This document shows, piece by piece, positions 17,898-57,372 of a stretch of DNA of 64,000 nucleotides. The notes under the pieces are model-generated. The model was not told the DNA's origin. It saw nothing but the letters and a program-made list of their open reading frames with translations, and searched no databases. The position numbers and the translations under genes are program-made. Source of the DNA: Stegostoma tigrinum. Its lineage: Eukaryota. How positions within the stretch are numbered: the stretch's first letter is position 1; the number at the start of each line of letters is the position of its first letter. The DNA is taken from positions 10,549,914-10,613,913 of the forward strand of contig NC_081386.1 of NCBI RefSeq assembly GCF_030684315.1, read 5' to 3'.

Positions 17898-18553
17898 ATC
17901 ATGGGCTTTGATAATGAAATGTGAGGCTGGATGAACACAGCAGGCCCAGCAGCTTCTCAGGAGCACAAAAGCTGACGTTTCGGGCCTAGACCCTTCATCA
18001 GAGAGGGGGATGGGGTGAGTGTTCTGGAATAAATAGGGAGAGAGGGGAAGGCGGACCGAAGATGGAGAGAAAAGAAGATAGGTGGAGAGGAGGGTATAGG
18101 TGGGGAGGTAGGGAGGGGATAGGTCAGTCCAGGGAAGACGGACAGGTCAAGGAGGTGGGATGAGGTTAGTAGGTAGGAGATGGAGGTGCGGCTTGGGGTG
18201 GGAGGAAGGGATGGGTGAGAGGAAGAACAGGTTAGGGAGGCAGAGACAGGTTGGACTGGTTTTGGGGTGCAGTGGGGGGAGGGACAAACTGGGCTGGTTT
18301 TTGGATGCGGTGGGGGAAGGGGAGATTTTGAAGATGGTGAAGTCCACATTGTTACCATTGGGCTGCAGAGTTCCCAAGCGGAATATGAATTGCTGTTCCT
18401 GCAACCTTCAGGTGGCATGATTGTAGCACTGCAGGTCAGCAACATCAGCTTTTGTGCTCCTGAGATGCTGCTGGGCCTGCTGTGTTCATCCAGCCTCACA
18501 TTTCATTATCTTGGATTCTCCAGCATCTGCAGTTCCCATTATCATGGGCTTTG
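17898..18553 (-). mobile_element. Penelope-like (Neptune-type) 3' fragment with inverted terminal arm and 13-bp TSD
   Basis: QEQQFIFRLGTLQPNGNNVDF (GIY-YIG C-terminus); inverted arms; TSD atcatgggctttg at 17898-17910 and 18541-18553. Confidence 0.9.
17972..18001 (-). ncRNA. Minimal type I hammerhead ribozyme motif (intact core)
   Basis: Minus strand reads CUGAUGA-A-GGGU(CUAG)GCCC-GAA-ACGU-C-AG. Confidence 0.65.
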
Positions 18554-19984
18554 CTTTGCTTTGAACCAACCAAATTTAGCTGCCGATCAAAGCCTGGTAG
18601 GAGAAAGTGCCACTGGCAAATAATCAGCTCTGCAATCTTGCACCTCATACAATGCAGGATGGAAGTCAAGGAATTCCATAACATGGCCCCTGTTCACCCA
18701 GTACAAATCATCGGCTTAAATTTCTACATTTATAAGCTTAACAAGGTGAATAATAATAATTCATTGTAATTTGTGATGACAGTATGCTTACTGGTTTCTA
18801 AAGAGTCTTTCCTTGATTTGAATGATTTTGATGTTTTGATTGCAAAGTTTTAATGCAACATTATTCAGTTTTCATTGTGATCTTTATATGATTAATATAT
18901 TTGAACATGTGGCACTATCTGTTGAAAATTATATGACAGAGTTGGCCTCCTGGAAGGTGTTTTTCTTTACAATCTCACATTCATATTGTAAGAACTGTCT
19001 TCAGTAAAAATAAATGATTGAGACCATTCTGATAACTAACAGAGTGGTTGTCATTTTGGAAGATGCTTCTATTCAGTATTTTCATAGTTTAACATTTAAT
19101 TCCCATTGCCACCAGCATCAGCATTTAATAATTAATTGTACTTAATGCTTCACTATAGCAGACAGATCATTGTTTGATGTATCACAATTGGGTGATCAAT
19201 TAAAAATCAATTGAAACCGTTCTGTTCACTTTATTTTCTGCCACTTATTCATTTCCTCTTTCCTGCTTCTGAAGGGAGAATTTGTGGTTGTTTGACTTCA
19301 CTAGTTCAGCTGATTTGGAAGTACATTCCTGAAAAAAAACTTTGCATAAATTGGTTTGTAGCCAAAGTAGCTGTAATAATGAAAAGTACAGGACAATAAG
19401 TGTGAGAAGCTACTTTTGCATTGCTTAATTTGCAATTCTCAGCAAGGTAAATCACTAGAACGTCAAGTGTGATCATGCAAACTAAACTGTGGAACAGTAA
19501 ATGAGCCATTTAATCTTTGGTAATGGATAAAGTCTTTGGTGCTAGACAGTACTAGAATTTTAAAGGTTTTCTTTCTGAGGCATGAGCTGTGTTTCAGATT
19601 TTTGGAAAATTAATTAAAGAGGTACTTATGGCATTAACATGTTATGGTCATTTTACCAAATGTGTAATATGTGTAGCTCAGAGTAGGATTGGAATGCATG
19701 TAATCATCATCTTGTAAAAAGAAAGGCAATTGCATCTACATTTGAAATTTCATGTTTTGAGCATGTCCTATAATTTTTCACAATGAATGCAACATTTTTT
19801 GAAGTACTACCACTTCTGTTATAAAGACAAATTTGTGGAAAGTCAGATCCCAGGAATAAATAAAGCATATTTCGAAGTAACTCAAGGACTGAATGCAAGT
19901 CGAGTAGAATGCTTGGTTCTCCAACAGTACTGTAAGACCTTGTACCTGAAAATGCCTTTGCTTTTACATCCTACCCAAAAGATA

Positions 19985-20500
19985 TCTTGTACGGGCATGA
20001 CACAACAGAGCCAATAGGCTGGAGGAACCGCACCTCAATTTTTGCTTGGGAACTTGACAGCCTTATAGACTCAATACAGAGTTCAACAACTTTAGGGCTT
20101 GAGCTTCTCCCAGGTCCTTACTTTAACCCCCACACATCAGACCTTGTTATCACATAGTCTGCCATTAGACACAACCTATTGTTAACCACTAACAGTCCCC
20201 ATTAATAACTATTCATCTTCCTGGCCTGATCATTATCCACTCCTTTGTCTGTCCAATTGTTCTCTATTTTTGGTCTCTATCCCTATCTATCATTTAATCC
20301 TTAACCTCTACACCTATCCTTGCTTCTGCACACAAAAACAACATTTTCCTAGCCCCATCAGTTCTGAGGAAGGGTCACTGGACCCAAAACGCTAACTCTG
20401 ATTTCTCTCCACAGGTACTGCCAGACCTGCTGAGCTTTTCCAGCAATTTCTGATTTTGTTTCTGATTTCCAGCATCTGTAGTTGTTTGGGTTTTTATTTT
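19985..20500 (+). mobile_element. Penelope-like 3' fragment with terminal repeat
   Basis: RLEEPHLNFCLGT*QPYRLNTEFNNFRA*; terminal ctgaggaagggtcactggacccaaaacg hammerhead-like motif. Confidence 0.75.
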
Positions 20501-20589
20501 GGTAGAGTCAATAGGAGTCTTCCCTTCTGGTTGGACAGAGCTGTGTCTCACCACTTGTCAGGATGCCCAGCTGATTTTTATTTTAATTA

Positions 20590-20915
20590 CTTTTGGGATG
20601 TTGTTATCACTGGCTACGCCAACATTTTTTGCCAATTTAATCGCCCTGACAGCAGTTAAGAATCATCTACGTTGTCGTTGATCTGGATTTACATGGAGGC
20701 CTAACCATACAAGGATGGCAGATTTCCTTCCCTGTTATTGAACCTGATGGGTTCTTTACAACAACTGACAGTGGTTACATGGTTGCAATTGGGCTAGTTT
20801 CTGATTTCCGAATTTAATTGAATTTAAAACTCCCCATTTATCACAGTTGGATTTGAACACATATCCCCAGAATACTTGCCTGAGGTTCTAGATTTTATAA
20901 TAACATCATTACTAT
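20590..20915 (-). mobile_element. tRNA-derived SINE (12639 family), decayed
   Basis: gggatg..ctggctacgccaacattt..aaggatggcagatttccttccct..ggatttgaac. Confidence 0.7.
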
Positions 20916-22766: not shown

Positions 22767-22977
22767 CAGATATTTATCCAGAAATCGCTGGAAAAGCTCA
22801 GCAGGCTTGGCAGGATCTGTGAAGAGAAATCAGAATTAGTCCTTCTGCACCTGAAATGTTGGCACTGATTTCTCTTCACCGATCCTGCCAGATCTGCTAA
22901 GCTTTTCCAGCAAAATGTTTTTGTTTCTGATTTACAGTTTCTGCAGTTCTATTAGTTTTTATTCAGATATTTATCCA
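22767..22977. mobile_element. Penelope-derived foldback mini-element with 14-bp TSD
   Basis: Arms gctggaaaagctcagcagg / ctgctaagcttttccagc; TSD cagatatttatcca at 22767-22780 and 22964-22977. Confidence 0.85.
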
Positions 22978-23246
22978 ACTATCTTTGAAACCATCCTATC
23001 AGCTATCTCATAAGTATTCAAAAATGTTTTTCAATAAGCAATTAGACTTTGCTTTGTATAACGAATTTGTTGTAGTTCAGAAAATAGAAGATAGCTATGA
23101 TTGTTTTAAAAGATAGATTGCTCCTGAAAGGGAGAACTGACATCAGGGTAAGCTCCATGATCAGGATATAAATGTCTGTCTCTGAGAGGAGATAAACCCT
23201 TCCAGTTTCATGTTCAATGCTAAGTTAAACAGTAAAACGTACTCAC

Positions 23247-23334
23247 TTTCAAGTCTAGCCCAAAGTCTCTGAGAGACCCTGATGTAATTCAGATGTAACA
23301 TAATAGCTATCAAGTATAATGTAGTCAACCTTCT
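23247..23334 (-). CDS. Possible 88-nt exon (unverified)
   Basis: Minus strand ctctgtctttctaaacag|AGAAGG...TTGAAA|gtgagt; one open frame RRLTTLYLIAIMLHLNYIRVSQRLWARLE. Confidence 0.2.
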
Positions 23335-23437
23335 CTGTTTAGAAAGACAGAGCCTCTGTGCTGTCAAAGACTTGGTGTGAACATTGTTCCTTACTTTTTG
23401 TATCAATATATTGGACAACTACCAATAAGATGGATCG

Positions 23438-23655
23438 ATAGATTCCCTGCAGTGTGGAAACAGGCCCTTCAGCCCAACAAGTCCACACAACCTGTTGAAG
23501 CATCCCATCCAGAACCATCCCCCTATAACCCACACACCCCTGAACGCTACAGGCAATTTAGCATGGCCAATCCACCTAGCTTGCACGTCTTTGGGCTGTG
23601 GGAAGAAACTGGAGCACCCGGAGGAAACCCATGCAGACACAGGGAGAATGTGCCT
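23438..23655 (-). mobile_element. HE1-like V-SINE, 5'-truncated
   Basis: cagtgtggaaacaggcccttcagcccaacaagtcc..gcaatttagcatggccaatccacc..gaggaaacccatgcagacacagggagaatgtgc. Confidence 0.9.
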
Positions 23656-24599
23656 AAGGTTTTAATCTGCTTTCTCTTCTCTCAGAACTACTGTATATTT
23701 TTGTGTTTGCATATGTATGTCTGCACATCTATGTGAAACTGTGGAAGGTGTCATTGGGGAGAATGGGTGAGATAATATGTCAACTTTACTCCATACCAGA
23801 ATAGGGGAGACTCAATTGCTAGTATTTTTATGCCCTTGTTTTACATTCATGCACTCTATTGTAATAAAGCTGTGTGTAAGACGATCTCTTCATTTTGTCT
23901 TTTGTAATTTGACCTTTTGCCTTTCATTGTTCTACGACTGAGTGTTTGCCTATTTACTAACCTGCAGGACCACGCTTCTGTAGTTTACCTTCTGACATGT
24001 TTTAAAAACTTCAATGAGATCAATCTTTTGCTTTCCATGAAAAAAACCTTTCAGAGATTTTATATTCAGAAACGTTTTCTGAAGAAAGATCTAGGCCCAA
24101 GACGTCAGCTTTAATGCTCCTCTGAAGCTGCTTGCCTTGCTGTGTTCATCCAGCTCTACACCTTGTTATCTCTTTAAGAGACCTTCTCTATAACCATAAT
24201 CTTTTATTCCTGATATCAATTGAGTGTGTATTTGTTTTGAGTTACCTACAGTTCCAGAACGCCTCATATAATGGGCTACCTAAAATGGTCCAGCAGGAAC
24301 CTAACCAATATCCTGAACAAATCTAAATCTCATCTCTAAAAGCCACATTTAATCAGTAGCAAAAGTGTATCAATGCATATTCCTGACTGTATTTAATCCT
24401 GTCTGCTTTCCAATACGTCGGTGTATTATGGCAAGGTATATTTAACTAGCATTCTGAAGCAAAGGATGAAGAATTGAGATAAAGTATGACTTATGACCTG
24501 ATACAAATACAATTACAAATAAATTCAACTGGTGAAATGATGAAAAAAACTCAAAGAAACACTCGTAAAATCAACTATATTCATCTGAAGTTTTTTTTA

Positions 24600-25983: not shown

Positions 25984-26272
25984 ATCACAGAATCCCTACA
26001 GTATGGAAGCAGGCCATTTGGGCAATCAAGCCCACACCAAACCTCTGAAGAGCAACTCACCCAGACTCAGTTCGTCACCCTGCATTTCCCATTGGCAATC
26101 CACCGAACCTGCGCGTCTTTGTACTGTGGGAGGAAACCAGAATACCCCAAGGAAACCCACGCAGACACAGGGAGAATTTGCAAACTCCACACAGTTGCCT
26201 GAGGGTTGAATCAAACCTGGACCCCTGGCACCATGAGGCAGTGGTGCTAACCATTGAGACACTGTGCCACGC
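25984..26272 (-). mobile_element. HE1-like V-SINE
   Basis: tRNA head (gaatcaaacctggacccctggcaccatgaggcagtggtgctaacca), V-domain and CR1-like tail. Confidence 0.9.
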
Positions 26273-26649: not shown

Positions 26650-26909
26650 AAACCTTTATCTCTGATAACAAAGTGCAGAGCTGGATGAACATAGCAGGCG
26701 AAGCAGCATCTTAGGAGCACAAAAGCTGACATTTCGGGCCTAGACCCTTCATCAGAAAAGCTTTTCTGATGAAGGGTCTAGGCCCAAAACGTCAGCTTTT
26801 GTGCTCTTAAGATGCTGCTTGGCCTGTTATGTTCGTCCAGCCCCACACTTTGTTATCTCAGATTTTCCAGTATCTACAGTTCCCATTATCTCTGAAATCT
26901 TTATCTCTG
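26650..26909. mobile_element. Loop-less palindromic Penelope-derived mini-element with two back-to-back hammerhead motifs
   Basis: About 97-bp arms centred on gaaaag|cttttc at 26760/26761, plus an unpaired tail of about 35 nt; TSD aaa(c/t)ctttatctctg at 26650-26664 and 26895-26909. Confidence 0.9.
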
Positions 26910-27734: not shown

Positions 27735-27852
27735 AGAAAAGCATGTTTCTGATGAAGGGTCTAGGCCTGAAACGTCAACTTTTGTGCTCCTAAGATACTG
27801 CTTGGCCTGCTATGTTCATCCAGCTCCACACTTTGTTATTTTAGAAAAGCAT
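27735..27852 (+). mobile_element. About 100-bp Penelope terminal-repeat insertion with intact hammerhead core and 10-bp TSD
   Basis: CTGATGAAGGGTCTAGGCCTGAAACGTC at 27749-27776; TSD agaaaagcat at 27735-27744 and 27843-27852. Confidence 0.8.
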
Positions 27853-28129: not shown

Positions 28130-28897
28130 GGAGTAGATCTGTAGCTCAGGTTGTGGGTGTTGATGTTGTTTGGCTCGCTGAGCCGGTTTGTTGTTTAGCA
28201 GACATTTTATTACCGTGCTGGGTAACATCCTCAGTGCAGCCTCCGATGAAGCGTCGGTCTGTTTTCCCACCTGGTTTTTAAACTCTGGGGTCTGTTACGA
28301 TGGATTGCCTCACTTCGGGGTTTCCTCCGGAGTGGAATGTATATGGGGTCGAGTTCAATGTGTTTATTAATAGCATGCTTCGTGGAGTGCCATGCGCCCA
28401 GGAATTCTCGTAATTGTCTCTGCCTAACCTGTCCCAGGATCTGGGTGTTGTCCAAGTTGAAGTCGTGGCTCTCCTTGTCCATGTTTCCTTCCTGTTCTTC
28501 CCCTAACAACAAGAGTACATTAACACCAACTGGCTACAAAAAGACACAACCAATACTCACTCATCTCAATCCACATGGACAAGGATAGCCATCACTTTGA
28601 CTGGGACAACACCCAGAACCTGAGTCAGGCTAGGCAGAGACAAGCATGAGAATTCCTGGAAGCATGGCACTCCACGAAGCATGTTATTAATAAACACATT
28701 GAACTCGACCCCATATACATTCCACTATTGAGGAAACCCGGAAGTGAGGCCATCCACCGCAATGAACCCCAGAGTTTAAAAATCAGATGGGAAAACACAC
28801 CAACGCTTCATCAGAGGCTGCACTGAGAATGTTACCAAGCACCATAACAAAATGTCTGCGAAACAACAAACCAGTTTAGCGAGCCAACCAACCTCAA
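28130..28897. mobile_element. Penelope-like (Poseidon-type) foldback fragment
   Basis: Arms at about 28160-28484 and 28573-28897; they encode HDFNLDNTQILGQVRQRQLREFLGAWHSTKHAINKHIELDPIYIPL (GIY-YIG C-terminus). Confidence 0.9.
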
Positions 28898-29646: not shown

Positions 29647-29844
29647 TCTGTGTCTATGTATGAGACAATAAGGTGTAGAGCTGGATGACCACAGCAGGCC
29701 AAGCAGCATCAGAGGAGCAGGAAGGCTGACGTTTCAGGCCTAGGCCCTTCTTCAGAAATTTCTGCTGTGTTCATCCAGCTCTACACCTTGTTATCTCAGA
29801 TTGTCCAGCATCTGCAGTTCCTACTATCTCTGTGTCTATGTATG
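29647..29844. mobile_element. Penelope-derived foldback mini-element with perfect 16-bp TSD and intact hammerhead core
   Basis: TSD tctgtgtctatgtatg at 29647-29662 and 29829-29844; minus-strand CTGAAGAAGGGCCTAGGCCTGAAACGTC at 29728-29755. Confidence 0.9.
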
Positions 29845-30310: not shown

Positions 30311-30603
30311 NNNNNNNNNNNNNNNNNNNNNNNNNNNNNNNNNNNNNNNNNNNNNNNNNNNNNNNNNNNNNNNNNNNNNNNNNNNNNNNNNNNNNNNNNN
30401 NNNNNNNNNNNNNNNNNNNNNNNNNNNNNNNNNNNNNNNNNNNNNNNNNNNNNNNNNNNNNNNNNNNNNNNNNNNNNNNNNNNNNNNNNNNNNNNNNNNN
30501 NNNNNNNNNNNNNNNNNNNNNNNNNNNNNNNNNNNNNNNNNNNNNNNNNNNNNNNNNNNNNNNNNNNNNNNNNNNNNNNNNNNNNNNNNNNNNNNNNNNN
30601 NNN
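30311..30603. other. Assembly gap (293 N)
   Basis: Run of n characters. Confidence 1.
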
Positions 30604-32458: not shown

Positions 32459-32735
32459 ATTATAGAATCCCTACAGTGTGGAAACAGGACCTTCGGCCCA
32501 ACAAGTCCAGCAAGAACCCATTCCCCCTAATCCTTGAACACTCTGGGCAATTTAGCATGGCCAATCCACCTAGCCTGCACCTCTTTGGACTGTGGGAGCA
32601 AACCAGAGGAAACCCACACAGACGCAAGGAGAATGTTCAAGCTCCACACAGATGGTCGCCCGAGGGTAGAATCAAACCTGGGTCCCCAGTGCTGTGAGGC
32701 AGCAGTGTTAGCCACTGAGCCACTGTGCTGCCCCG
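32459..32735 (-). mobile_element. HE1-like V-SINE, inserted in a CR1 3' tail
   Basis: Same diagnostic blocks as the other HE1-like copies. Confidence 0.9.
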
Positions 32736-33289: not shown

Positions 33290-34282
33290 GCTGGGAGGCC
33301 GCGCAGCATCCGAGGAGCAGGAAAGTTGATGTTTTGTGTTGGAAGCCCCCAGTCTTCACATGTCACTCCACCAACGTCTGCATCCAATGTATCATTCTCT
33401 GCCACTTCCGCCACCCACAACCTGACCCCACAATCAAAGAGATATTTCCCTCCCCCAGCCCCTATCTGCCTTTCATAGGGATCACTCTCTCTGCGACTCC
33501 TTTGTCTGCTCCATGCTCTGCACTTATCCCACCACCGCAAGGCACCTTTCCTTGCAACAGCAGTAAGTGCTACACGTGCCCATACATCTGACCACCACAC
33601 CCCCCACACCCTACCTCACCTCCATCTAAGGCCATAAACAAACCTTACAAATCAGACAGGAGTTCACCTGCACATCTGTCAACTTGGTCGACTGTATCCG
33701 CTGCTCCCGATGTGGCCTCCTCTACATCGGTGAGACCAAGCATTGACACAGAGACCATTTTGTTGAGCATCTGGGCTTTGTACACAACAAACGGCAACAC
33801 CTTCCAGTCGCCAACCATTTTAACTTCCCCTCCCACTCTCTGGATGACATGTCCATCCTCCAGTGTGACAATGATGCCACACACAAACTGGAGGAGCAGC
33901 ATCTCATATTCCGCCTCAGGACCCTACAGCCTGATGGCCTAAACATGGAATTCGCTGATTTTAAAATCTCCCCACCCCTGGCCTCATCCCATGTCCAACC
34001 CTCCCTCTCATCCCCACCTCCTTGACCTGACACTACCTGCCCTTTTTCTTCCCTACCTATCCGGCCTACCCTTCCTGCTGATCGATCCTCGCCAGCCCCT
34101 ACCTTCACCCACCGATCACCACGCCACTTACCTTTCCCTAGTGCCATGCATCCTCCCTCCCACCTCCTTGATCCGACATAACCTGTCCATCTTCTCTCCC
34201 ACCTATCCACCCTGGCCTTCCCACTGACCAATCCCCACCCCTCCCTACCTGCACTCACCTATCACCATCCTGCCTACCTTCA
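33290..34282 (+). mobile_element. Penelope-like (Neptune-type) fragment: Cys linker, GIY-YIG endonuclease and pyrimidine-rich 3' region
   Basis: GTFPCNSSKCYTCPYI; FTCTSVNLVDCIRCSRCGLLYIGETK; LEEQHLIFRLRTLQPDGLNMEF. Confidence 0.9.
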
Positions 34283-35878
34283 ACAAAATGAAAATCTTGC
34301 TGATGATCTGTCTTATATCAGAAACGTTATTATGACAGGTTATGGGGCTGAAATAATGGTGTCATCTGCCAGGTCTTCAATTTCTGTTTCTTATGACAAG
34401 ATTCTTGTACACAGTAGGTGTCTGGAGTGAACTTTATTGGTGATCTTCCAGTTTTCATGATCTAGAACACACAAAAGAAAGCAGAATTGGCTGTGCTCTC
34501 TATGGAATAGCTTGCAACCCCTGCTAAAAGAATTGCTGCCATAGTCTCGCCATAACTCTGTAGAACATGTTTGAATCCCTTAGGCACCCCATTGGGCCAA
34601 TTTTGATTTGGGCACTTGACAGGCAATATGAGAATTGCTTAACATTGAAATATCCAGCAAGATTGGACATGTTCATCTTGGGTGGTTTGTACATTCTGTT
34701 CCACCATTATGTTGTAATGGAGCAGCACTGGGGGATCTTGGGATTTACAACATCTCACCGCAAGGTCTTGATAGCTGGTTAGTCTGCGACTACTTTTAAG
34801 AAGTGATTATTATGTATTGTATGTGAATGTGGTTTCAAGTATTGAATGAGCGCAAAATTCACATAGGTATTAAAAAAAAACAAATGTTTGATTTAATTAA
34901 AAAAAAAATGGAATCATTTGAGATTGTTGATCAAATGGGAGGTTCTCTTGTGTGAACATTTTGGACATAATGACTGAAGATGGTGTTCATTGACAGCTGC
35001 AATCTCTTTAAACAGGCCAAGTAGAATAATATTGACTAGTTTACTTTTGTGCCGTATTGTTGTGCTGGCAAAATCGGAGCAATCATTTCCAAGATCCAAA
35101 CCGTCCAAAGCCTTGTCGAGAATTGAAACGTGGCGTTGACTTTTATCATTGTGCAACACATTTTCCAAGTTCAGCTAACCATTATGACCAAGTTTATGCG
35201 TGTTTCTAAGTTTCTGTTCCTGGTCAATTTTGCTGCTAAATACACTTCACAGGTACTTTGGAGCCTGGCTAATACACATTCTGCCGGAAGAATAGAAGTA
35301 ACAGGTGTGATAGCTAAAGTTGGTTCTCAATTTTCTTTATACGGCTCAGGTTGCAAATTCAAAACTGAAAGCAGAAGTTGCTGGAAATGCTCAACAAGTC
35401 TGGCAGCATTTGTGGAGAGAAAGCCTAGTTAATGTTTCGGGTCCAGTGAACCTTCTTCAGAAATCAGGGTGACAAATTCCTTTCAGCATCACTTTTGCTA
35501 GTGGGTCAGTTATATTTGGTATTATTTCCATTAGACTGGGCATTTTCTTCCAGTCAACTGATAAATTAAGTGGCCAGTTTGATTCGATGAGTAGCATGTT
35601 TCAGCTTTTTTAAATGCCACATAACTGCAGAGGAAAGTTTGGAGGTATCTGATTTTTAATTTGATTTTGATTTTTATTATCATGTGTACCCAAGTACAGG
35701 AGTACAGTCAAACTGTATAATGACGCCATACAAGGTACCATCTGGCGACAAGTGCCTAGGTGCAGAATCTTAAGAACAAGGTACAAAGAAAGAAAAAAAA
35801 AGTTAAACATTGCAGTAATTATAATACAGTGTAAAATATACAAAATAAGCTGAAAAGTTGCTGACCTTCTTAGTTTTA

Positions 35879-36190
35879 TCATAGGATCCCTACACTGTGG
35901 AAACAGGCCCTTTGGCCCAACAAGTCCACACCAACACACAGAGCATCCCACCAGACCCATCCCCCTAATCTATACATCCCTGAACACTACAGGCAATTTA
36001 GCATGGCCAATCCACTTGGCCAGCACATCTTTGGACTGTGGGAGGAAACTGGAACACCTGGAAGAAACCCATACAGACACAGGGAGAATGTGCAAATTCC
36101 ACACAGACAGTTGCCCGAGGGTGGAATCAAACCTGGGTCTGCGGCAGTGTGAAGCAGCAGTGCTAACCACTGAGACACTGTGCCAGCCCC
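35879..36190 (-). mobile_element. HE1-like V-SINE
   Basis: Full head, V-domain and tail. Confidence 0.9.
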
Positions 36191-39549: not shown

Positions 39550-39853
39550 CCACACATAGTGTTTCAGTGGTTAACACACCTCACAGCGCCAGGGACCTGG
39601 GTTCGATTTCCCCCTTGGCAACTGTCCACATGGAGCTTGCACATTCTCCCTGTGTCTGTGTGGGTTCCCTCCCAGTGCTCCAGTTTCCTTCCACAGTTCA
39701 AAGATGTTCAGGCTAAGTGGATTGGCCAGGCTAAATTGCCGAATTTTTAATGTCTTGTAGATTAGGTGTGGTTTAGGGGGCTAAGTCTGGGTGGGATGGT
39801 CTGAGGTTTGGCATGGATCGAAGGGCCTGTTTCCACACTGTACGGATTCTATG
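39550..39853 (+). mobile_element. HE1-like V-SINE
   Basis: cagtggttaacac..cacagcgccagggacctgggttcgatt, V-domain, gaagggcctgtttccacactgt tail. Confidence 0.9.
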
Positions 39854-41606: not shown

Positions 41607-44600
41607 GTTTTCAAAAAGATTTATAGCTTGGGTTGTGGATGAGGTTCTAGACATGCTTGAGGTGATTGGTTTGGTGGCAAACATTTCATCATGCTGCCAG
41701 GTAACATCATCAGTACAGCTCTGGTAAAGTGTTGGTGTTCTGTCCTGCTTGTTATTTATATACCTACGTTTGTTGGAGTGTTTGGTATCACTTCCAGTTC
41801 TGTTTCTCAGCGGTTTGTACACAGGGTCGAATTCAATGTGTTTGTTGATGGAGTTTTGGTTAGAATACCAGGCCTCCAGGATTTCCCTGGTGTGTCTCTG
41901 GATTGTGTAATTATGCAGGTGTTGTTCCTGTCAAATTTGTGTATCTCGTTGTCTGTGTGTAATGTGACAAGTGAGAATTGGATGTGTCTCTTGGTGGCTA
42001 GCTGGTATTTGTGTGTCTATATTGTCAGTTTTCTCCCAGTTTGGCCAATGTAGTGTTTCTCACAGTCCTTGGATGATATTTTGTATATTACGCCGGTTTT
42101 GCTGGCTTTGGGTATGGGGTCCTTTGTATTCATCAGAAGCTGTCGTAGGGTGGTTGTTGGTTTGTGGGCTACCCTAATACCTAGGGGTCTGATAGCCTTG
42201 TGTTTAGCTCTGAAATGTCCTTGATGTATGGTAGGGTGATTAATGAATCTGGTCATGTTGTGTCTTCCTATTGGAGTCTATCTTGGAGGTAATAGCATAT
42301 TATGCTTTTCGGGTATCCATACCTTTCCCTTATACTTCCCGCACAAATTCTCAGAAAGCAGATACTATCTCAAAGCTTAAAATATAAACCATCTATCAAC
42401 AATCCACAGGCACGGAGAACAGCTGTACAGAACAGCTGTACAGAAAGGGTTATGATCAGCGGTGCCCACAACTGCTTCCACGAATACGAGTGTAAAATTG
42501 TGTGCCAAAAAATCCCTGTATTCTAACACAAGTGACCAGGATTGGACATCCACAGTGGAACGAGCTATCAACATATAACAACAAAAGACTAGAACAAATA
42601 AAAGAAAAGCTCTGCAAGAAAAGCTGTCTAAGATCACCCACATCAATGACATGGACAACAAAAGATTCATGGACTAAAAACATCTCAGACTGACCACTTA
42701 CAAACACTGACAGGACCGTCGTAGTATGCAGACTGAATTATAACTACGGAGACGCCAAAAAAACTGACTTCTTGGCTGCTCTGGAATCAACAGTAAAGAG
42801 CAACGAACTCCCAAAAGAAGTACAGCAGACTATCAGACAGACAATCATCCCACCACTGAGTAAAAGAAGTAAGTGGAACACATTTGACGCAGAAAAAAGG
42901 AAAGCTCTGGAAGGACTCGACAAAGGCAGGAACATTTTAATCTTATCAGCAGATGAAGGACACACGACAGTCGTTCTTAAGAAAGCTCATTACACCGAGA
43001 AAGCTAACACACTACTAGCGGTTACTGGCACTTACCAACAGATGGCCATAGACCCAACACCTAAGTTAGGAAACTGGATCAAAATGACCCTGAAGAAATT
43101 ACGCAACTCACGAGACATCAACAAGACAGATTGTCAAAAAAAAAGCTGTAGGGATCCAACACACCATGCTTCTACAGACTCCCCAAAGTATACAAACTGG
43201 GCGGCGGGTGGGGGGGGGGGGGGGGCGCTCAGACCCCTTGTCTGACTGCCAAGTACATCAACATATAGACTTATCAAATAACAAACAGAAATTGAAATAC
43301 TTGTTTGACAACACTACTCACTCCATCCACTCATCCCAAGAATTCCTCAACATCATCAAAAATACCAGGATAGTAGAGGACAAGATGATGATATCCTTTG
43401 ACTATTTATGCCCATAAACATTGACCTTGCCAAAGAAACAATTGCCACATTGCTGGACAAATCAGGAAGGCAGGAACCCCAGGGCACCAACAGCTTCAAT
43501 AAGGACACCACCATGAATCTTCTAGATCTGTGCCTCTCAATGCACTTCACCTTCAACTTCAGCATATACAAACAAATCAACAGAAAACCATTGGGGATCT
43601 CCAGTATGAGGACTGATTGCAAAAGCAGTATTGCACAGGTTAGCATGAACAGCACTCCCCATTATACAACCCAAACTTTGGGTCTGATATGTAAATGACA
43701 CTTCCATGATTATCAAATGCACAAACCAGAAGAAACCCACCAACACATAAACAACATTCTCACTGGGATAAAGTTCTCAAAAGAAGAAAAGAACAATAAC
43801 CAACTATCTTTCCTGGACATAATAGTAGGAAGCATAACCAACAGGGAACTCCTGTTAGTTCTAGTGACTAGTGTATACAGAAAGGATCAGATAGTCAATT
43901 ACAACAGCAACCCCTTCAAATCCCACAAATGGAGCTGCATCAGGACACTATTTAGATGAGCCACAACACATTGCAGTGACCTGGAGCCACACAGAGCAGA
44001 ACAGGAACACTTGTACAGAGTCTTTGAAAGGAATGGATACTCGAAAAGTACAATCCGCCATTACCTCTAAGACAGGCCTCAACAGGAAGACACAACACAA
44101 CCAGACCCTCCCTACTGGACACCAAGGACTCTTCAGAGATGATCACAAGACTACCCAGGCCCCTAGGTATCAGGATAGCTCACAAACCAAAAACCACCCT
44201 GTGACTGCTACTAACAACTGTAAAGCATCCCATACCCAAAACCAGCAAAACTGGTGTAATATACAAAATACCATGTAGGGACTGTGAGAAACACTGCACA
44301 GGCCAAACTGGAAGAAAACTGGCAATATGGATACATGAACACCAACCAGTCATCAAGATACACGACCAAATCTCTTTTCTTGCACTGCACACAGACAACG
44401 AGGGACACAAATTTGACTAGGACAACACAACCATAGTCGCACAAGCCAAACAGAGACATGCCAGGGAATTCCTACTGGCCTGATATTCTATCTGGAACTC
44501 CATCAACAAACACATTGAATTAGACCCTGTGTACAAGCCACTGAGAACAGAACCAGAAATGGTACTAAACACCCCAACAAGCTGAGGTATATAAAAAACA

Positions 44601-44745
44601 AGCGGGACAGAACACTGATGCTTCACCGGAAATGCAATGATGATATTAACTAACAGGGTGACGAAATGTTTGACACCAAACTCACCTGGCTCGATGACTA
44701 TGTCTACAACTTCATCCACAACCCGAGCTACAAAACATCTCAAAC
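41607..44745 (+). mobile_element. Near full-length decayed Penelope-like element (RT and GIY-YIG) with a roughly 710-bp inverted copy of its 3' end at the 5' side
   Basis: ILILSADEGHTTVVL, SIHSSQEFL..MMISFD, HFTFNFSIYKQ, YVND (for YVDD), QLSFLDI, SVYRK, GVIYKIPCRDCEKHCTGQTGRKL. 41607-42320 is the reverse complement of about 44032-44745. Confidence 0.93.
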
Positions 44746-44749
44746 TTTA

Positions 44750-45680
44750 ACCATGTTATTCCATCTGACTGTTAATTCTATCCCGCATAACTGCCTGAAG
44801 AGGTTCTCCTTGCTTTTGCCCTCCCAAACCCTCACCCCATTCACTCCAAGTTAAACTGACTGGTCAGTAATTATTGGATTCAACTGTCCAGCCTTTTTAG
44901 AAAAAGAATATTGCATTTTCAATTCTTCAGACCTGTGGCACCACACCTGAGTATTGGGAAGATTGAAATTTGTTGCCAGTGCTTCTGCAATTTCCACTCT
45001 GCCTTACTTTAATAGCTCTGGATGTATCTCATTTGATCCCAGTGCCTTATCAAGTATTGACATCTTATCCAATACCTTCTCCATCTCAATTTTAAACTCT
45101 TTTAATAGTTAAAAGTTCCTCTGTTACCATATCTCACTTTTCTCAGTAAACTCAGATGGAAAATATTCATTCAACGCCTCAACCATGCCTCCGCCATTGT
45201 GTGTGATTTCCTTCTTTGGTGCCGAGTTAGCTCAATACCTTCTGTCTCATTTTACTATTAATCAGCCGATAGTGGAGTTAGCAATTCCCCTTTTAGTGTT
45301 TTGCATCTCCCTTCTTTGGTTTTCCATCTCCCCTCTAACCTTGGATCGCAATTGTATTATCTACCTGCCACCCCTCAAGAACACACCTTTCCTTCTTCAT
45401 TTTAATCTATATCTCGTTTTTCAGACAAAGTTCTGGTCTTGTTTGCCTTGCCTTCGTGAGGAAACATACCTCAATAGCTGAGCCATCTGTTCTTTTGAAC
45501 GTAGCCCATTGTTTAGCTGCAGAACTTCCTGTCAACTTTTGGTTTCAGTCTATCTGGCCTAACTGTCTTCTTTTCCCATCAAAGTCAGCTGTCCCCATTG
45601 AAATTCTTACTCTGCATTGTCCTTTATCCTATTCAAATATCATCTGAAGTCTTATTTTAAAGTATCACTGTCCCCCAGCT
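44750..45680 (-). mobile_element. Old, heavily decayed CR1 ORF2 fragment
   Basis: aactgactggtcagtaatt (antisense of the NYRPVSL region), gatgtatctcatttgatcccagtgcc, aatattcattcaacgcctcaaccat. Confidence 0.6.
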
Positions 45681-49490: not shown

Positions 49491-52400
49491 TAGCAAACTG
49501 TGTTTTAAAAAATTGAAGAAGGATACACCTGCATGTTAAAAATAATTTTAAAATCTTTGCTTCAGTCAACCGAGGGAATTTAACATAGGGGAGTCTCTTC
49601 ACCTTTCCTCACCTGCACACAGCATTTCATGAATATATAGTACCCTGGCTTAGACGAGACAAAGGACAATCACAACATTTGTGCAGAAGGTAATGTAAGG
49701 CGGAATATATTGTTGCATATTTGTTCACCTGAAAATCTTTGGTTTCTGACAGAACACTGTATGCATGACCTTGTGACTATGTGGCCCACTTCTGTATTGT
49801 CCCATATCTTGTAAAGTACTATGCAGGTTTGCCAAGTTTTCATAAAACTTTTGAGATAGCCCATGAAAGATTGGCATCCTCAAGGTGATGATAATGTTTC
49901 ATTTCTTTAGCCTTGCTTTGTCATTTTATGAATCTGCCCACCCTCCATTCTCCAAAAATGTTTAAGACGTGATACAAGAAACACTGTCTGTGGCAGCACA
50001 GTGCATTTTGCCAGTGTTTCCTGTAGGGAGCCAACTACTGTTACATTGATAATGCTAACAGCCAAACATGTCAAAAGCCCACTAGTGCCCTCCAAGGCGC
50101 CGTTTCCCAATCTGGTTTACAAGAGGTTGCAGTACCATATTATATGGTTGACTCTTAATACTCTTCAGTGATTGGCCATAAATACTGCCTCACCCAAAAG
50201 CCAAGATGAGATGAAAATATCATTTCTTTTAGCTAATTGTTCTTTTCTTTACAAATCAAAAAGTGGAGGTGGCGGGGGGGGGGGCTCTTATGGCACATTG
50301 GCTGTATTCCTGCCTCTGGGCTGAGGGACCTGGATTCAAGTCCCACTTGCTCCAGCAGTGTGTAATAATGTCTCTGAACAAGTTGGTTAGGGGAAAAAAG
50401 AGGTTAAACTGAAAAAAAATGAAAATGAAGAACAGATTGAGCTGTTTGCATTATGTTCTTCCCTTTCATAGATATCTTGAATCATCTACGGCTGTATGAA
50501 CGAAATAAAAGGCAAGCAAAAAAAAACTTCAAATCCTCTTCTTGAGCTACACACGAGGAAACAAGCCCAAATCAGAACACTGCTAAAAATTCTGTGGCAG
50601 AGATTACTAGCATCCAGTCATGTCGTTCCAACTACTAACCTTCTGTACCTTAATCATCTGAGGCTGCTCATGTACCGAAAAATCATAAATATCATTTAAA
50701 AAATCCAACTGCCCTCCCCAACGTTGCTGTTCAACTAATTCAGTATGAGCCCAGTTGCCAGGTAACAGAATGTTCTGTCCCTTCAAAGGGCTGCTCATTA
50801 TGATTCTTCTTTGAAACTTTCATTTGCACACTGATCTCAGCAATTTACAAGTCCTGCTCGATCAACTTCTGATATTGTTTGACAAGAAGTGAACCAAGGA
50901 TTCCTCTATGTTGGCAGATTGGCAACAGCAATAGATTTGTGCCATGTAGGTCATTTCTTAGAAAGTGGGACAAGGCAATTCAGTACAGTGACACAGCCTA
51001 ATTCCACATTAGCAGTGACCACACTAATAAGAAAATGAACACCTTCATTTAGAAAATAAAATACATACTGTAATTTTATAAAATTATTTTATAATTGTCC
51101 ATTGCAGAGAGGCTTAGTAACTTTAAGTTACCTCATTAACAATTTTTGAAACAAAGTGCAGTGGTGGAAGAGATATGAAATTATTTCTAAATTGGAGGCT
51201 ATCAGATCAGGAGATATCATGGACAGAGTTCCTTCCATGTAGTGTGTAAGGCAGCACACATTTCTGTCAGTTAATGGGCATCTGAGAAGGATAATTTATT
51301 CTGGAGAATGATAGTGAGCAAAGAATATTGGGGTTTCAAAAGAAAACGAGTATGAGCTTTAGTCTTTTGTATGTTTGTAAATGAACTATAATTAAAGTTG
51401 GCATGCCTGAATTCTAGTTGTGTAAGCCACATTAAACAATAATTCTCACAATTCGTGGAGCGATCTCCTCATATTGACCTCATTCAACTACTTAAACGTT
51501 TCAGCAAAAGTAGAGCACATTGATGCTGCTGGAGGTTAAATCACAATATAGTGCTTCGGTGTCCTAGCAACCACTTATTAAAGAAAGAGAGATTATTGCC
51601 GAAGGTTAAAAAAGTACTTCCATATTGTTTAGTACCTCCACACATTTCCCATTAAAATCTAATCAACTCTAGAGTCCAAGAGATTCTGTTTGCAGCATTC
51701 ATTCCATGTTCAAATAAATATTGCAAAACTACACAGGCATTCACAAGTTAACGTAGATAAATGTAGATTATTTCGCAGCCAGAATTCTAAACACCCACAT
51801 TTGCATAAACCCAAATTGTTTGAATAAAGTAAACTGCAAAGTCATTTGTACTATTAATCCTATTGCACCAATCATCAATTAGTGAATTAACTAATTTATT
51901 ATATTCATCATTTTGCATAATACCATAAAAGTACAGGAAGTTTTCTTATCCAATGTCTTGTTTCCTGCCCTGTACAAATCCCAACTCAAATTTTGCATGT
52001 ATGTACATGAATTAATTACTTGGGGAGAGTTGTTAGTAAGACTTCCTCCTGTCTTGGCAGTACCTCTTTCTTTGTGGATTACCACTGAGGCTGAAGAATC
52101 CCATCCACCCTTTACGATGGGGTATTGTCTGGAGTGGGGTCAAAAACTCAATCCTTCTGACTCAGAGTTAGGAATATCTTGCAAAGAATCAGTGCTCACA
52201 GTGCCCAGACCTCCTTGCATCTCAACAAAGCACCTAGAAATCATGGATAGAAACTTGCCTGAGGCATCAGAGGTCTCATGAGATAGCAGGAGACCCAGGC
52301 AGAGGCTTTTCCAGGAGACGTTTCACCAAATGACAGATTCATCAGGCATTGGCAAGACCCCCATGGGCCTAACAGAGGCCAGCAGCTTTTGGACTCCCCA

Positions 52401-52899
52401 GCGCCATGGAGAAATCCAAGGGAACTACTGAAAGAGAGGTCCCTTTCCTGGAATTCCAACTGTGTAGAGGACTCGGGACAAAATTAAATATTATATAGGG
52501 GTTGAGGGTGTTTCTTGGAATGGGTCCATGTGGCGAAAGGCGGGCATGCGGTGCATGGAGTTGGAAACAAGAATGTGAGTTGACACATATTAGGCGCCAC
52601 TGCCCTATTTTAATCTCTCAGTTACGCATTGAGTACCTTTGATGGAGGGACTAACTGCTCCCCAAAGCGACAAGTACAGATTGACCTGTTGGGCTTGGCT
52701 GTTAGTGGACTGACCCAATGGGTTATCCCAAGCGGTGGTGGGCTGAGCTGCCTCTTAGGTCATCCATAATTGACCAACTAAGGGTATCAAATGATGGCAG
52801 GCCCAGCATTTTACACCTGGTGGGTGAGATAGCAGTGGATTTGTGCATGTTATCAGCCCGCTTTCTGAAGTGTCCTCATGACCAAGCTCAACACTACAG

Positions 52900-54530
52900 A
52901 TGTTGGCAATAATCACTGGGCTGGTAATCAATAGAACACAGCTAATGTTCTGGGGACATGGGTTCAAATCCCACCTTGACAAGTGGTTAAATTCGAATTC
53001 AATTAAAAAGTAATCTGGAAATAAAAGTTAGCTTACTGATGACCATTTAACCATTGCTAATTGTCATAAAAACCCGTCTGGTTCCCTAATGTCCTTTCAG
53101 GAAGGAAATCAGCTGTACTTACCAAGTGTAGAGCTGGATGAACACAGCAGGCCAAGCAGCATCACAGGAGCAGGAAGGCTGACGTTCTGGGCCTAGACCC
53201 TTCTTCAGAAATGAGTAAGGGGAAGGGGGTTCTGAAATAAATAGGGAGAGAGGGGGAGGCGGATAGAAGGATAGAGGAGAAGCTAGGTGGAGAGAAGACA
53301 CACAGGTCAAAGAGGTGGGGATGGAGCCAGTCGAGATGAGTGTAGGTGGGGAGGTAGGTAGGAGTAGGTCAGTCCAGGGAGGACGGACAGGTCAAGGGGG
53401 TGGGTTGAGGTTAGTAGGTAGGAGATGGGGGTGGGTCTTGGGATGGGAGGGGTCGATAGGTTAGGGAGGTGGGGGCGAGCTGGGCTGGTGTTGGGATGTG
53501 GTGGGGGGAGGGGAGATTTTGAAGCTTGTGAAATCCGCATTGATACCATTGAGCTGCAGGTTTCCCAAACAGAACATGAGATGCTGCTCCTGTAACCTTG
53601 GGGTAGTATCGTTGTGGCACAGCAGGAAGCCCAGGATGGACATGTCATCTGAAGAATGGGAGGGGGAGTTGAAATGGTTCACAACTGGGAGGTGCAGTTG
53701 TTTATTGTAAACCGATCATAGGTGTTCTGCAAAGCAGTCCCCAAGCCTCTGCTTGGTTTCCCCGATGTAGAGGAGGCCACAATGGGTACAGCGGATGCAG
53801 TATACCACGTTAACAGATGTGCAGGTGAACATGTGCTTGATGTGGAAACTCTTCATGGGGCCTGGGATGGGGGTGAGGGGGGAAGTATAGAGGCAGGTGC
53901 AGCACTTCTTGTGGTTTCAGGGAAACGTGCCGGGGGTGATGGGGCTGGAGGGGTTTGTGGAGTGGACAAGGGAGTCCCAGAGAGACTGGTCCCTCTGGAA
54001 AAGCTTCAAAATCTCGCCTTCCCCTACTGCATCCAAAAACCAGCCCAGCTCGTCCCTGCCTCACTAACCTGCCCTTCCTCCCACCTATCCCCTCCTCCCA
54101 CCCTAAGCTCCACCCCCATCTCCTACCTAATAATCTTATCCCGCTCCCTTGACTTGTCCGTCCTCCTTGGACTGACCTATCTCCTCCCTACCTCCCCACC
54201 TATACTCACCTTGACTGGCTCCATCTCCACCTCTTTGACCGGTCTGCCTCCTCTCCACCTATCTTCTCCTCTATCCATTTTCTATCTGACTCCCCTTCTC
54301 TCCCTATTTATTTCAGAATCCCCTTCCCCTCCTCCATTTCTGAAGAAGGGTCTAGGCCCAAAACGTTAGCTTTCCTGCTCCTCTGATGCTGCTGTGTTCA
54401 TCCAGTTCTACACTTTGTTATCTTAGATTCTCCAGCATCTTCAGTTCCTGCTATTTCTGTACTTACTGGATTGGCCTACACACGACTTCAGACCCACAGC
54501 AATGTGCTTAACTCTCAACTACCTGATGCA
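52900..54530 (+). mobile_element. tRNA SINE (12639 family) split by a Penelope insertion
   Basis: ...gtcctttcaggaaggaaatcagctgtacttac | ... | ctgtacttactggattggcctacacacgacttcagacccacagcaatg. Confidence 0.8.
53113..54466 (-). mobile_element. Penelope-like (Neptune-type) foldback insertion with GIY-YIG and 10-bp TSD
   Basis: Minus strand FTCTSVNVVYCIRCTHCGLLYIGETKQRLGDCFAEHL; arms at about 53123-53528 and 54001-54420; TSD ctgtacttac at 53113-53122 and 54457-54466. Confidence 0.92.
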
Positions 54531-56759
54531 GTAAGTCCTGAAGGATAGCAGAGGGCTGCAGGTTTCATCTTGAGACTTTCTTAAGAGAGTTATTTGCTAC
54601 CAGGAAATGCTCCGGAACAAAATACTGGCAGTAATACCAATAAATTGAGCAAGTTTAATGTCATGTGAATGGAGGTACTCTTCAGCTATGACATACCTTA
54701 ACGCCAATCTTGTTCCATTTATCTCCTCCCCTGCCCCTCCACACCAACGACTCCCTGATTCACCAATGTTGTATTGCTTTATTAGTCAACTCAGACATTG
54801 GGTGATTATCCAGCCAGTTATAACTAGTGAAAATTAGTTTCAAAAGGTGTCATTGACCTTAAAATGGAGCTGTGAGATTCAATGTTCTGGGTGTTACCAA
54901 TCTGGGTGAGTAGAGCCCTGGGTTTATCGAAGAAGGAAACTTCTTTTAAGATGCAAATCAAGACCCTACATTTGATTCATGAACCCTCTGTGCTTGAACT
55001 CGGCTTATTGGTGGTATTGCCAAAGAGTTGAAGAGGAATGTCTACGTTAGGTTTTTAGCATGAAGAAATGTTCCCTAGGGACCTTCCCCCACTAGTTTAT
55101 GTGTTAATGACAAGATGTAGAAGAAAAGTAGGCCGCTCCCCCCCTCTCCTCAAGTCTGTTCACCATTCAATAAGATCATGTCTGGTCTGATTGTAGCATT
55201 AATTCCACTTACTTGTCTGACCCCCATAACTCTTGATGTCCTTGTCAACTTTAAATATATTCAATGACTCACCCTCTATTGCTCTCTGGAGAAGGCTAGT
55301 GGCCATCTGAAAGAATATCATACCTCTCCATTTCAGTCTTAAATCAGAGTCTTCCATTAATATTGGACTCTAGTGAATCAGGGACCTCACAATCACTGCG
55401 TTCAGTTCCTGAACCCAATTAGCATCAATCAAGTAGTGAAGCATGATTGAAGTGCAAAAATTCTGAGTTTTCAATCCTTTGGCTAATCTAAGCCTGCTCC
55501 ACTCATCTGGTATAATCACTACTCAGGAATTTTTCACATTTTCAAAGTTGCTCATTTAGAAGATAATATTAATAAGTAAACTTGATTCAGCAATAAAGGG
55601 ATAAAACTTGATTTATTTTATCTAAACTTTTACAGAGCTAAATGTTAACATCAAAACATCAAAACAAAGACCACTAGCAGCATCCAAACTGATGGGAGGA
55701 CACTTCGACTGTCTCAGCTGGTTGGAGGCCCAATCCTTTTGGATGGTCTCCAGCCTCCAGCCTCCAATAGCTGTTGCTTTGCAGCAAGCACACCATTTCA
55801 AGTCCTGAAAATAGGGGTATATCAATTTCTCCTCCACTCTCCATTTCACCAGGGACACCCCAGTAGCCCGCCCTGGAAAGGATAACATGATTTTCTGGGC
55901 TCAAGCTAAACAGTAACCATCTGACGAAACAGCATAGATTTTGGCCTTGACTTTCCTATAGGTTTGGGGAAAAGGACTTGAGAATTTTTGTAATTGAAAT
56001 GCACGCCTGATTTTTTTTTTGTTTTAATCAAGCAAGTTTTGGGTTTGCAGTAGAGTTGGCCAGCCATGTTGGATGGGGTGAGGAGTATGAGTGCAGAAGT
56101 AGAATTGTTCAAAGCCCCATCTTGCTTCTCTGGCAGAGAAGCCTAACTTAAAATCCCCAGCATGCATCCCTCAAGCTGGTCAGCCCACTACACACCATTA
56201 ATGCCTCCTGATGCCTCTTCAAATTCTACCTCCATGACCATCTCCTCACTCCCCATCCATGTAGCCTCTAATATGTGCTCTCAGGTGTCAAGAAACTGTG
56301 ATGGGAATAGTTTTTACTACATAAAACTATGGCAATGTAATAAAACTCATTCAAAGGTCTTGTTTTGATACAGTGCACAGAATTGTTTATGCTTTACAAG
56401 AAGGATAATGCTTTAAGTGTTAGTTAAGTTGTGTAAATAAATCAATGTAATCACATCTAAGGCAGATGATGTTGTTCCAGACTCATTAACCTGCCAATCA
56501 TTCCCCTAAATAGCCATGTCACTGGAACTTAAACCCCTCACTTTTAGGAACTCAGCCAAACATTCATAATAACCACAGCTCTTAAAACATTCTTGCCATA
56601 AAAGGAATTTGAAATTGAAACAGTAGATGGCATCCTCTCCAAATCAAAGCAAATTACATCAAAGAGGGATGATTTCAGTTTTATTTTATCTTTTGAAAAC
56701 AAAGAACTTCTTTGTTGCATAGTCAGAACTGTCTGTTCATTCAAATCCCAGTGCTAAGC

Positions 56760-56960
56760 ATTATGGGAAGGTTTATCAACCATTTTTTGTGCATTTCTTC
56801 ATGCTGCATTTGACACTTCTGTCAACAGAAAAATGTACTGCCATGCATGTCAGCATTTATATCATTTATCACATTTATTTATTAGCATTTATCACATGGC
56901 AGTTCATGTAATGGTCAACTTTGAATAATGAAGAATTGCATTAAATAGATGCTTATGAAA
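56760..56960. promoter_or_regulatory. Candidate Pbx-Hox/Meis enhancer module
   Basis: CATTTAT x4 (56854, 56863, 56872, 56886), two of them forming TGATAAAT on the minus strand; TGACA/TGTCA at 56811, 56820 and 56848. Confidence 0.4.
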
Positions 56961-57171
56961 CAGTCACGATACAGTGTCTAATATAACAACTGAAGATGTC
57001 AGATTATTTTACACTTAGTTTCCACAATGTTCCGCTCTCCCCAGCAGCACCCCCTGTAGTTCTATTCTCTCTTAGGGTCTGTTATTAGAGCTTACTGAAA
57101 CTGCATGAGCACTTGAAAACAGTATGGAAGACAATTCTCCTCACAATAAGAACCTTGACCTCAAAAGAGGT

Positions 57172-57372
57172 AGAGATAACACAGTGTAGAGCTGGAGGAA
57201 CACAGCATGCCAAGCAACATCAGAGGAGCAGGAAAGTTGACGTTTTGGGGCAGGACCTTTCTTCAGAAATGAACTCTGACCTGAAACATCAACTTCCCTG
57301 CTCATCTGATGCTGCCTGGCCTGTTGTGTCCCCCCAGCTCCATACTGTGTTATCTCTGACTCCAGCATCAGA
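57172..57372. mobile_element. Penelope-derived foldback mini-element
   Basis: agagataacacagtgtagagctgg ... ccagctccatactgtgttatctct; degenerate hammerhead motif at about 57238-57268 (-). Confidence 0.8.

What the first reader, a model, noticed from the sequence alone, without database searches (positions are those of the whole stretch)
17972..57268. About 15 minimal hammerhead ribozyme motifs dispersed in Penelope termini
Seen: CUGANGA-A-stem II-GAA-ACGU-C is intact at 17972-18001(-), 27749-27776(+) and 29728-29755(-). Variants, mostly mutated in the CGAAACG segment as expected from CpG decay, lie at about 20363(+), 24079(+), 26725(-), 26766(+), 35430(-), 53180(-), 54340(+) and 57238(-), with a second type at 28197(-), 28820(+), 41678(-) and 44635(+). 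Known: PLEs encode minimal type I hammerheads lacking helix III, with a palindromic ACGU thought to allow cleavage as dimers, and metazoan retrozymes use such motifs. Inference: intact copies could cleave a host transcript crossing this region or produce small RNAs. Caveat: helix I is only about 2 bp in the GGGUCUAGGCCC type.
Basis: partly seen in the sequence, partly recalled or inferred. Interest (0 to 1): 0.7.

Follow-up and report, generated by a model that had tools for sequence, protein, structure and literature searches.

The report
Dead Penelope ends carrying minimal hammerheads
These are real copies of the tiny hammerhead self-cutting RNA motif already known from Penelope-like jumping genes, scattered about 140,000 times through this animal genome as mostly decayed insertions, and they are likely harmless to host RNA here; their one point of interest is that the broken front ends of the copies likely record where the element's RNA starts and, rarely, where it is cut.

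Summary
All 15 motifs are in the sequence (coordinates off by up to 3 nt) and are far above chance. They are the published minimal hammerheads of Penelope-like element (PLE) termini, from three families, not two: Neptune-type A, its relative C, and Poseidon-type B. Three keep the full core; all 12 others carry a CpG-type change, 8 of them loss of the catalytic G12. The window is ordinary: 4 intact descriptor hits against 2.8 per 64 kb in 1.42 Mb of random genome, and one 28-mer occurs 98,881 times. Helices I and II covary across families. Cleavage of a host transcript here is not supported: no host exon found, no tandem pair, paired copies are inverted, helix I is predicted not to form, and G12 decays at the CpG rate. 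Genome-wide, 5' ends of copies pile up 30 nt after a TATA-like box (-4 in A, -17 in B) with a G excess, and roughly 1% start at the predicted cut, a weak and confounded signal. This scan has reported the same elements and both signals many times before, also in this genome.

The parts
17974..18001 (-). Family A (A1) minimal hammerhead, full core; 3' end of a Neptune-type PLE remnant 17917-18435 with an inverted tail at about 18433-18544(+)
   Evidence: GIY-YIG C-terminal part 76% identical to a genomic copy (tblastn)
20364..20393 (+). Family C motif, G12>A and U16.1>C, helix I 4 bp
24079..24106 (+). Family A stub, G12>A, A14>G, helix II broken
26728..26755 (-). Family A (A1b) motif, C15.2>U; left arm of the head-to-head insertion at about 26658-26895
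26766..26793 (+). Family A (A1b) motif, G12>A; right arm of the same insertion
27749..27776 (+). Family A (A1b) motif, full core; ~100-nt stub between 10-bp target duplications (27735-27744, 27843-27852), with one G (27745) between the duplication and the element's first base
   Evidence: sequence printed, read by eye
28201..28234 (-). Family B motif, G12>A, C15.2>U; left arm of inverted pair 28160-28897
28823..28856 (+). Family B motif, G8>A, G12>A, C15.2>U; right arm
29728..29755 (-). Family A (A2) motif, full core; stub joined to an inverted tail piece (insertion about 29652-29833, 16-bp flanking repeat)
35431..35460 (-). Family C motif, G16.2>A
41680..41713 (-). Family B motif, C15.2>U; inverted arm (about 41620-42242) of a decayed Poseidon-type element
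42694..44760 (+). Decayed Poseidon-type PLE body (RT and GIY-YIG remnants, many stops) ending in the family B motif 44637-44670 (C3>A, C15.2>U)
53133..54001 (-). Neptune-type PLE 3' remnant (GIY-YIG, UTR, TATA-like box) with family A2 motif 53181-53208 (G12>A, A13>G)
54002..54454 (+). Inverted arm of the same insertion with motif 54340-54367 (G12>A)
57239..57266 (-). Family A2 stub, G12>A, with an inverted partner starting inside the motif (57263+)
17067..17251 (.).
33346..34175 (+). Older Neptune-type fragment (CxxC linker, GIY-YIG) without its motif

Best explanation
The 15 motifs are minimal type I hammerheads at the 3' terminal repeats of dead, 5'-truncated Penelope-like retrotransposons of three families, and they likely worked only in the source elements' RNA, not in host transcripts at this locus. 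Shown: the motifs, their place behind a GIY-YIG reading frame, their copy number, covariation across families and CpG decay in the copies. Inferred: in a source element the terminal repeat holds a TATA-like promoter about 30 nt before the start, so the hammerhead lies in the first 30-50 nt of a capped RNA. The element's protein primes reverse transcription 90-130 nt into that RNA; copying that runs off the capped end leaves the ~100-130-nt stubs, often as inverted pairs, that make up most sites here. Cleavage would need a second copy (ACGU pairing) or the element's protein, and would be rare.
For: Neptune-type frame with YIDD, CxxC linker and GIY-YIG directly before family A motifs in 6 of 6 fetched long-frame loci (Pfam GIY-YIG E 0.013 and RVT_1 E 0.0069, both below cut-off); Poseidon-type frame before family B. 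98,881 and 9,209 exact pattern matches, reversed controls 0. Pairs change between families while staying paired: 2.1-1.1 U-A in A and C, A-U in B; helix II pair 2 G-C against U-A, pair 3 G-C against U-G/U-A, pair 4 U-G/U-A against A-U; the extra base after A9 is A or U. G12 is lost in 5 of 45 A1, 5 of 14 A1b and 6 of 24 A2 copies, like its CpG neighbours. 5' ends: 25 of 98 A1 copies start in -7..-1, 6 of 98 in -59..-8; 49 of the first 100 listed truncated B copies start at -17 (by eye; 13 of these are fold-backs); both points lie 30 nt after a TATA-like box. G against A before -4: 1950 to 756, control position 100 to 72, odds ratio 1.9, p 1.7e-4. 3' ends cluster at +91..94 (92 of 309) and +127..131 (100 of 309), the two-ended PLE tail (set holds some overlapping loci).
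Against: No cleavage or RNA data. In young A1 copies non-CpG core positions carry fewer private changes than flanks (1 of 448 against 37 of 2368, p 0.023; 8.4 expected, Poisson p 0.002), which could mean selection on inserted copies; it is absent in A1b (p 0.76) and A2 (p 0.71) and can come from many source elements with a protected core. The start site is inferred from DNA ends only; fold-back junctions inflate the pile-up and the control position also shows some G excess. D. virilis Penelope has a TATA-less internal promoter (PMC2377424, passages). No full-length element with two direct repeats was found in my sample.
Confidence: 0.85

Rival explanations
1. One reading: intact copies cut a host transcript that crosses the window, or release small RNAs.
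For: Three copies keep the full core; A1 cores show fewer private changes than flanks; retrozymes avoid introns in Xenopus (bioRxiv 2026.07.22.740005, passages).
Against: No host exon among 288 of 290 unmasked window frames and 150 of 278 flank frames. Intact copies: one on +, two on - 11.8 kb apart; same-strand neighbours are at least 983 nt apart. The 26658-26863 pair folds into one ~100-bp hairpin on either strand (-164 and -168 kcal/mol), helix I probability <=0.002 for families A and C, ACGU duplex only -1.7 kcal/mol. G12 decays at the CpG rate.
Confidence: 0.05
2. The motif no longer cuts at all; it is kept as a promoter-proximal DNA element or as a binding site for the element's protein.
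For: It lies at +5..+32 of the predicted start in family A, where downstream promoter elements sit; anole Poseidon needs no cleavage for insertion in vitro and RNA-seq showed no reads ending at the cut (PMC11167929); the cut-site signal in A1 is no higher than at +33..+36.
Against: Helices covary across families, and the motif keeps its core at different distances from the start (-4 against -17). 5' ends peak locally at the predicted cut in both families. The anole motif cleaves when the protein is added (PMC11167929).
Confidence: 0.15
3. The short copies are a separate non-autonomous element (retrozyme or SINE) with its own RNA.
For: Many copies are ~100-130 nt with their own target duplications.
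Against: No tandem units in the window; 8 of 46 close pairs in the sample are same-strand. The stubs lack the TATA-like box, share subfamily variants with long copies, and form a continuum with them.
Confidence: 0.07

Closest known systems
[quoted passage not shown]
   Same: CUGANGA and GAAA boxes, no helix III, palindromic ACGU, one base between A9 and G10.1, G10.1-C11.1, mostly single dispersed copies, pairs on opposite strands; reported in Neptune and Poseidon PLEs of fish.
   Different: Copy number about 140,000 against 4,000-9,000 in coelacanth and Xenopus; family A has a 4-5-bp helix II and a 2-bp helix I (consensus there 7-8 and 4-5 bp; 2 bp only in D. virilis). No shark term in the searched supplements.
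Poseidon of Anolis carolinensis (PAc); Frangieh et al. 2024, PMC11167929 (parts 1-2 of 4 read)
   Same: Hammerhead in the pLTR; two 3' tail ends that mark internal priming sites about 30-40 nt apart.
   Different: Their motif cleaves only with protein; nothing was tested here. They do not report 5'-end pile-ups in the parts I read.
Complex insertions of endonuclease-positive PLEs; Craig et al. 2021, PMC8557442 (passages)
   Same: 5' truncation, inverted 5'-truncated copy, 30-40-bp tail; CxxC linker in Neptune and Nematis.
   Different: Here most copies are cut down to the last 100-130 nt.
Animal non-LTR retrozymes; PMC7229834 (passages) and bioRxiv 10.64898/2026.07.22.740005 (part 1 of 5 and passages; supplements closed)
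   Same: Type I hammerhead, derived from PLE termini, present in one chondrichthyan.
   Different: Retrozymes are tandem arrays with a hammerhead in every unit; none in this window.

Membership tests
Minimal type I hammerhead (min-HHR) | Core CUGANGA and GAAA, cut triplet NUH | tested here: met
   Full in 3 of 15 window sites and 63 sites in 1.42 Mb
Minimal type I hammerhead (min-HHR) | No helix III; palindromic ACGU for dimer pairing | tested here: met
   ACGU in all families; 98,881 and 9,209 exact matches
Minimal type I hammerhead (min-HHR) | One base between A9 and G10.1; G10.1-C11.1 | tested here: met
   A in 154 of 155 family A hits, U in 24 of 24 B hits; G-C in 116 of 155, G-U in 31
Minimal type I hammerhead (min-HHR) | Helix II with covariation across families | tested here: met
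   Pairs 2-4 differ between A/C and B and stay paired; three to four lineages only, no formal covariation statistic
Minimal type I hammerhead (min-HHR) | Helix I of 4-5 bp | tested here: inconclusive
   2 bp in A, 3 bp in B, 3-4 bp in C; first pair covaries; predicted unstable
Minimal type I hammerhead (min-HHR) | Self-cleavage as dimer or with protein | not testable with these tools
   Only an indirect 5'-end signal
Penelope-like element, endonuclease-positive | One frame with RT then GIY-YIG before the terminal repeat | tested here: met
   Pfam hits weak and below cut-off
Penelope-like element, endonuclease-positive | Inverted 5'-truncated copy and 30-40-nt tail | tested here: met
Neptune clade (family A) | CxxC linker between RT and endonuclease | tested here: met
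   shared with Nematis
Neptune or Poseidon clade | Placement in an RT tree | not tested
   No reference PLE proteins at hand; clade labels rest on the linker and on recalled motifs
Non-LTR retrozyme | Tandem units each with a complete hammerhead | tested here: not met
   No tandem motif units in the window

The most novel reading that the evidence does not exclude
The genome's 100,000-plus stubs are a fossil map of the PLE RNA: they mark a capped start 30 nt after a TATA box, with the cap copied as an extra G, so the hammerhead is the front end of the transcript; and the roughly 1% of copies that begin at the predicted cut show that a hammerhead with a 2-bp helix I does cleave in the germ line, which published RNA-seq could not show.
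Probability: 0.45. Interest if true: 0.5.

Novelty: new member of a known kind. Interest (0 to 1): 0.22.

Why it matters
The window itself matters little: it is an average sample of a known motif in dead repeats. The families matter modestly as a whole. Whether PLE hammerheads cut in vivo and how PLEs make their inverted, truncated insertions are open questions in the papers read, and this genome's copy number turns them into countable DNA ends and names exact positions for CAGE and cleavage assays.

Tried and rejected
Rfam scan: no hammerhead family among 7 matches. Host gene: one Pfam hit (MAT1 anchor, 4111-4245, E 1.9e-4, under cut-off) rejected as chance; the peptide does not look like MNAT1 (recalled) and the recalled neighbour TRMT5 lies on other contigs. 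Exons shorter than 45 codons, exons without a Pfam family, and the 293-nt N stretch would be missed. Sequencing runs: no RNA holder listed; no reads were laid. A rod-like fold of the family A leader that would hide the core: not better than shuffles (z +1.85 to -1.35 in 5 copies). A splice acceptor as cause of the 5' pile-up: upstream sequences differ between copies, so no shared exon. L125 as a full-length element with two direct repeats: no frame between them. Descriptor hits 52317(-) and 34297(+): no helix I and no family in 1.42 Mb, left out. Lunse et al. 2017 is not held; I saw only its title and its description in PMC6765202 (passages). Searches without a hit or without a relevant hit: hammerhead+Penelope+shark (one irrelevant paper), Penelope-like+non-templated G+cap (none), Penelope+hammerhead+start site+truncated+TATA (none); subscription journals and Repbase are not covered.
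Full report
Observation. All 15 motifs are in the window within 3 nt of the stated places. A descriptor (CUGANGA, helix II of at least 4 pairs, GAAACGUH) found 4, 9 and 15 hits at 0, <=1 and <=2 mismatches; 20 dinucleotide shuffles gave means of 0, 0.1 and 2.65. Three sites have the full core (17974-, 27749+, 29728-); two of these close helix II with G-U. The other 12 all carry a CpG-type change, 8 of them G12>A, the general base (role of G12 from PMC6155905, passages). Rfam found no hammerhead.

The window is average. One family A pattern matches 98,881 times and one family B pattern 9,209 times in the 3.2-Gb genome, with reversed controls at 0. In 142 stretches of 10 kb taken at round coordinates there were 63 intact and 142 near-intact motifs, 2.8 and 6.4 per 64 kb, about 142,000 intact by extrapolation; the window has 4 and 9, the flanks 2.7 and 6.4. 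The host is likely a shark; this comes from earlier scan notes and my recall, not from a test.

What carries them. Family A motifs lie about 250-350 nt after a frame with YIDD, a CxxC linker and a GIY-YIG domain in six fetched loci with long frames and in window remnants. Pfam support is weak, but the layout is that of Neptune-type PLEs (PMC8557442, passages). Family B follows a Poseidon-type endonuclease without the linker (label partly recalled). Sites 20364 and 35431 form a third family, C, with a 15-nt helix II module and a different tail. Most sites are stubs of 100-130 nt or inverted pairs inside one target duplication, such as 26658-26895 and 29652-29833. 3' ends cluster at +91..94 and +127..131 from C3 (192 of 309 tails, some loci overlapping), the two-ended tail that PMC11167929 ties to internal priming.

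Structure. Across families the helices change and stay paired: the first pair of helix I is U-A in A and C and A-U in B; helix II pairs 2-4 are G-C, G-C, U-G/U-A in A and C and U-A, U-G/U-A, A-U in B; one base (A or U) always follows A9. This matches the min-HHR consensus of PMC4209133. Helix I is 2 bp in A, 3 in B and 3-4 in C. Its predicted probability is <=0.002 in A and C and 0.08-0.44 in B, and the ACGU duplex is worth -1.7 kcal/mol. Published monomers did not cleave, dimers did so weakly (PMC4209133), and the anole motif cleaved only with protein (PMC11167929).

Could these copies cut host RNA? I found no host exon in 288 of 290 unmasked window frames or 150 of 278 flank frames; the one hit was rejected. 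The search misses short exons and the N stretch. A cis dimer needs two intact same-strand copies close together: here one intact copy is on +, two on - are 11.8 kb apart, and same-strand neighbours of any state are at least 983 nt apart. The head-to-head pair folds into one long hairpin on either strand. In copies found by their tail, not their core, G12 is lost in 5 of 45 A1, 5 of 14 A1b and 6 of 24 A2 copies, like other CpG positions, and intact cores fall with age: 29 of 45, 3 of 14, 4 of 24. Against this, non-CpG core positions of A1 show 1 private change in 448 where 8.4 were expected. The older subfamilies do not show this, and selection on many source elements would give the same pattern.

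Where copies begin. Of 98 A1 copies in the sample, 39 reach more than 60 nt upstream, 6 start in -59..-8 and 25 in -7..-1, some of them at fold-back junctions. Genome-wide, copies starting at -4 are preceded by G 1950 times and by A 756 times; at control position +41 the counts are 100 and 72 (odds ratio 1.9, p 1.7e-4). About 13 and 28 of the first 100 listed are point changes in long copies, and both lists hold fold-backs. In family B, 49 of the first 100 of 357 truncated copies start at -17, 13 of them fold-backs (by eye). Both points lie 30 nt after a TATA-like box but at different distances from the hammerhead, which favours a transcription start over a structural stop. The stub at 27749 shows the pattern directly: target duplication, one G, then the element. 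The start and the cap are inferred.

The predicted cut. For A1, exact patterns gave 851 copies starting at the cut against 271 two bases after and 97 two bases before. But 31 of the first 100 listed at the cut are fold-backs joined at an AGC microhomology and 8 are one-base deletions. In a second design, 15 of 100 listed starts fell at the cut, 3 and 3 at the next two positions, but 8-14 at each of +32..+36 (by eye). For B, 18 of 100 fell at the cut, 9, 0 and 3 at the three positions before, 11 and 12 after; 13 rows were set aside as A-run changes or deletions (by eye). This is a local peak in both families, roughly 1% of copies by a rough estimate, and not clean proof.

Comparison and verdict. 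This is the known min-HHR of PLE termini in three more families; retrozyme membership fails for lack of tandem units. What differs from the papers read is the copy number, the very short helices of family A, and the 5'-end map, for which three searches found no paper. The scan's own notes already hold these points: 770 findings with these words in at least 36 genomes, 505 in this genome. I took the start-site and cut-site ideas from them and tested both; the first held, the second only weakly. Supplements not seen (file 1 of PMC4209133, those of the 2026 preprint) and Lunse et al. 2017 may already list shark motifs. Interest 0.22.

Noticed in passing
window 52317-52345(-): A full CUGAUGA...GAAACGUC core with a weak helix II and no helix I, with no related copy in 1.42 Mb; chance or a very old family.
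   Followed up: partly
window 6511-7013: Three tandem copies of a 167-nt unit, 98% alike; no hammerhead descriptor hit there.
   Followed up: no
window 1-961(-), 7665-8012(-), 11156-11458(-), 59321-59839: Fragments of other, LINE-type reverse transcriptases (RVT_1 E 2.9e-18 for 467-958).
   Followed up: no
window 23438-23653, 25987-26269, 32462-32730, 35881-36185, 39617-39740: A second dispersed short repeat family, SINE-like.
   Followed up: no
window 17320-17409, 22779-22933, 37590-37659, 61464-61556: Further family C and A tails whose motif is missing or decayed.
   Followed up: partly
L192 (G000:C10:95000001-95010000): A tandem array of a 58-nt piece of the family A tail, without the hammerhead.
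   Followed up: no
family A helix II, e.g. window 17982-17993: The 12-nt helix II segment is nearly self-complementary; two molecules are predicted to pair through it (-15 kcal/mol against two monomers), and many fold-back insertions are centred on it.
   Followed up: partly
window 30311-30603: 293 N; not examined.
   Followed up: no
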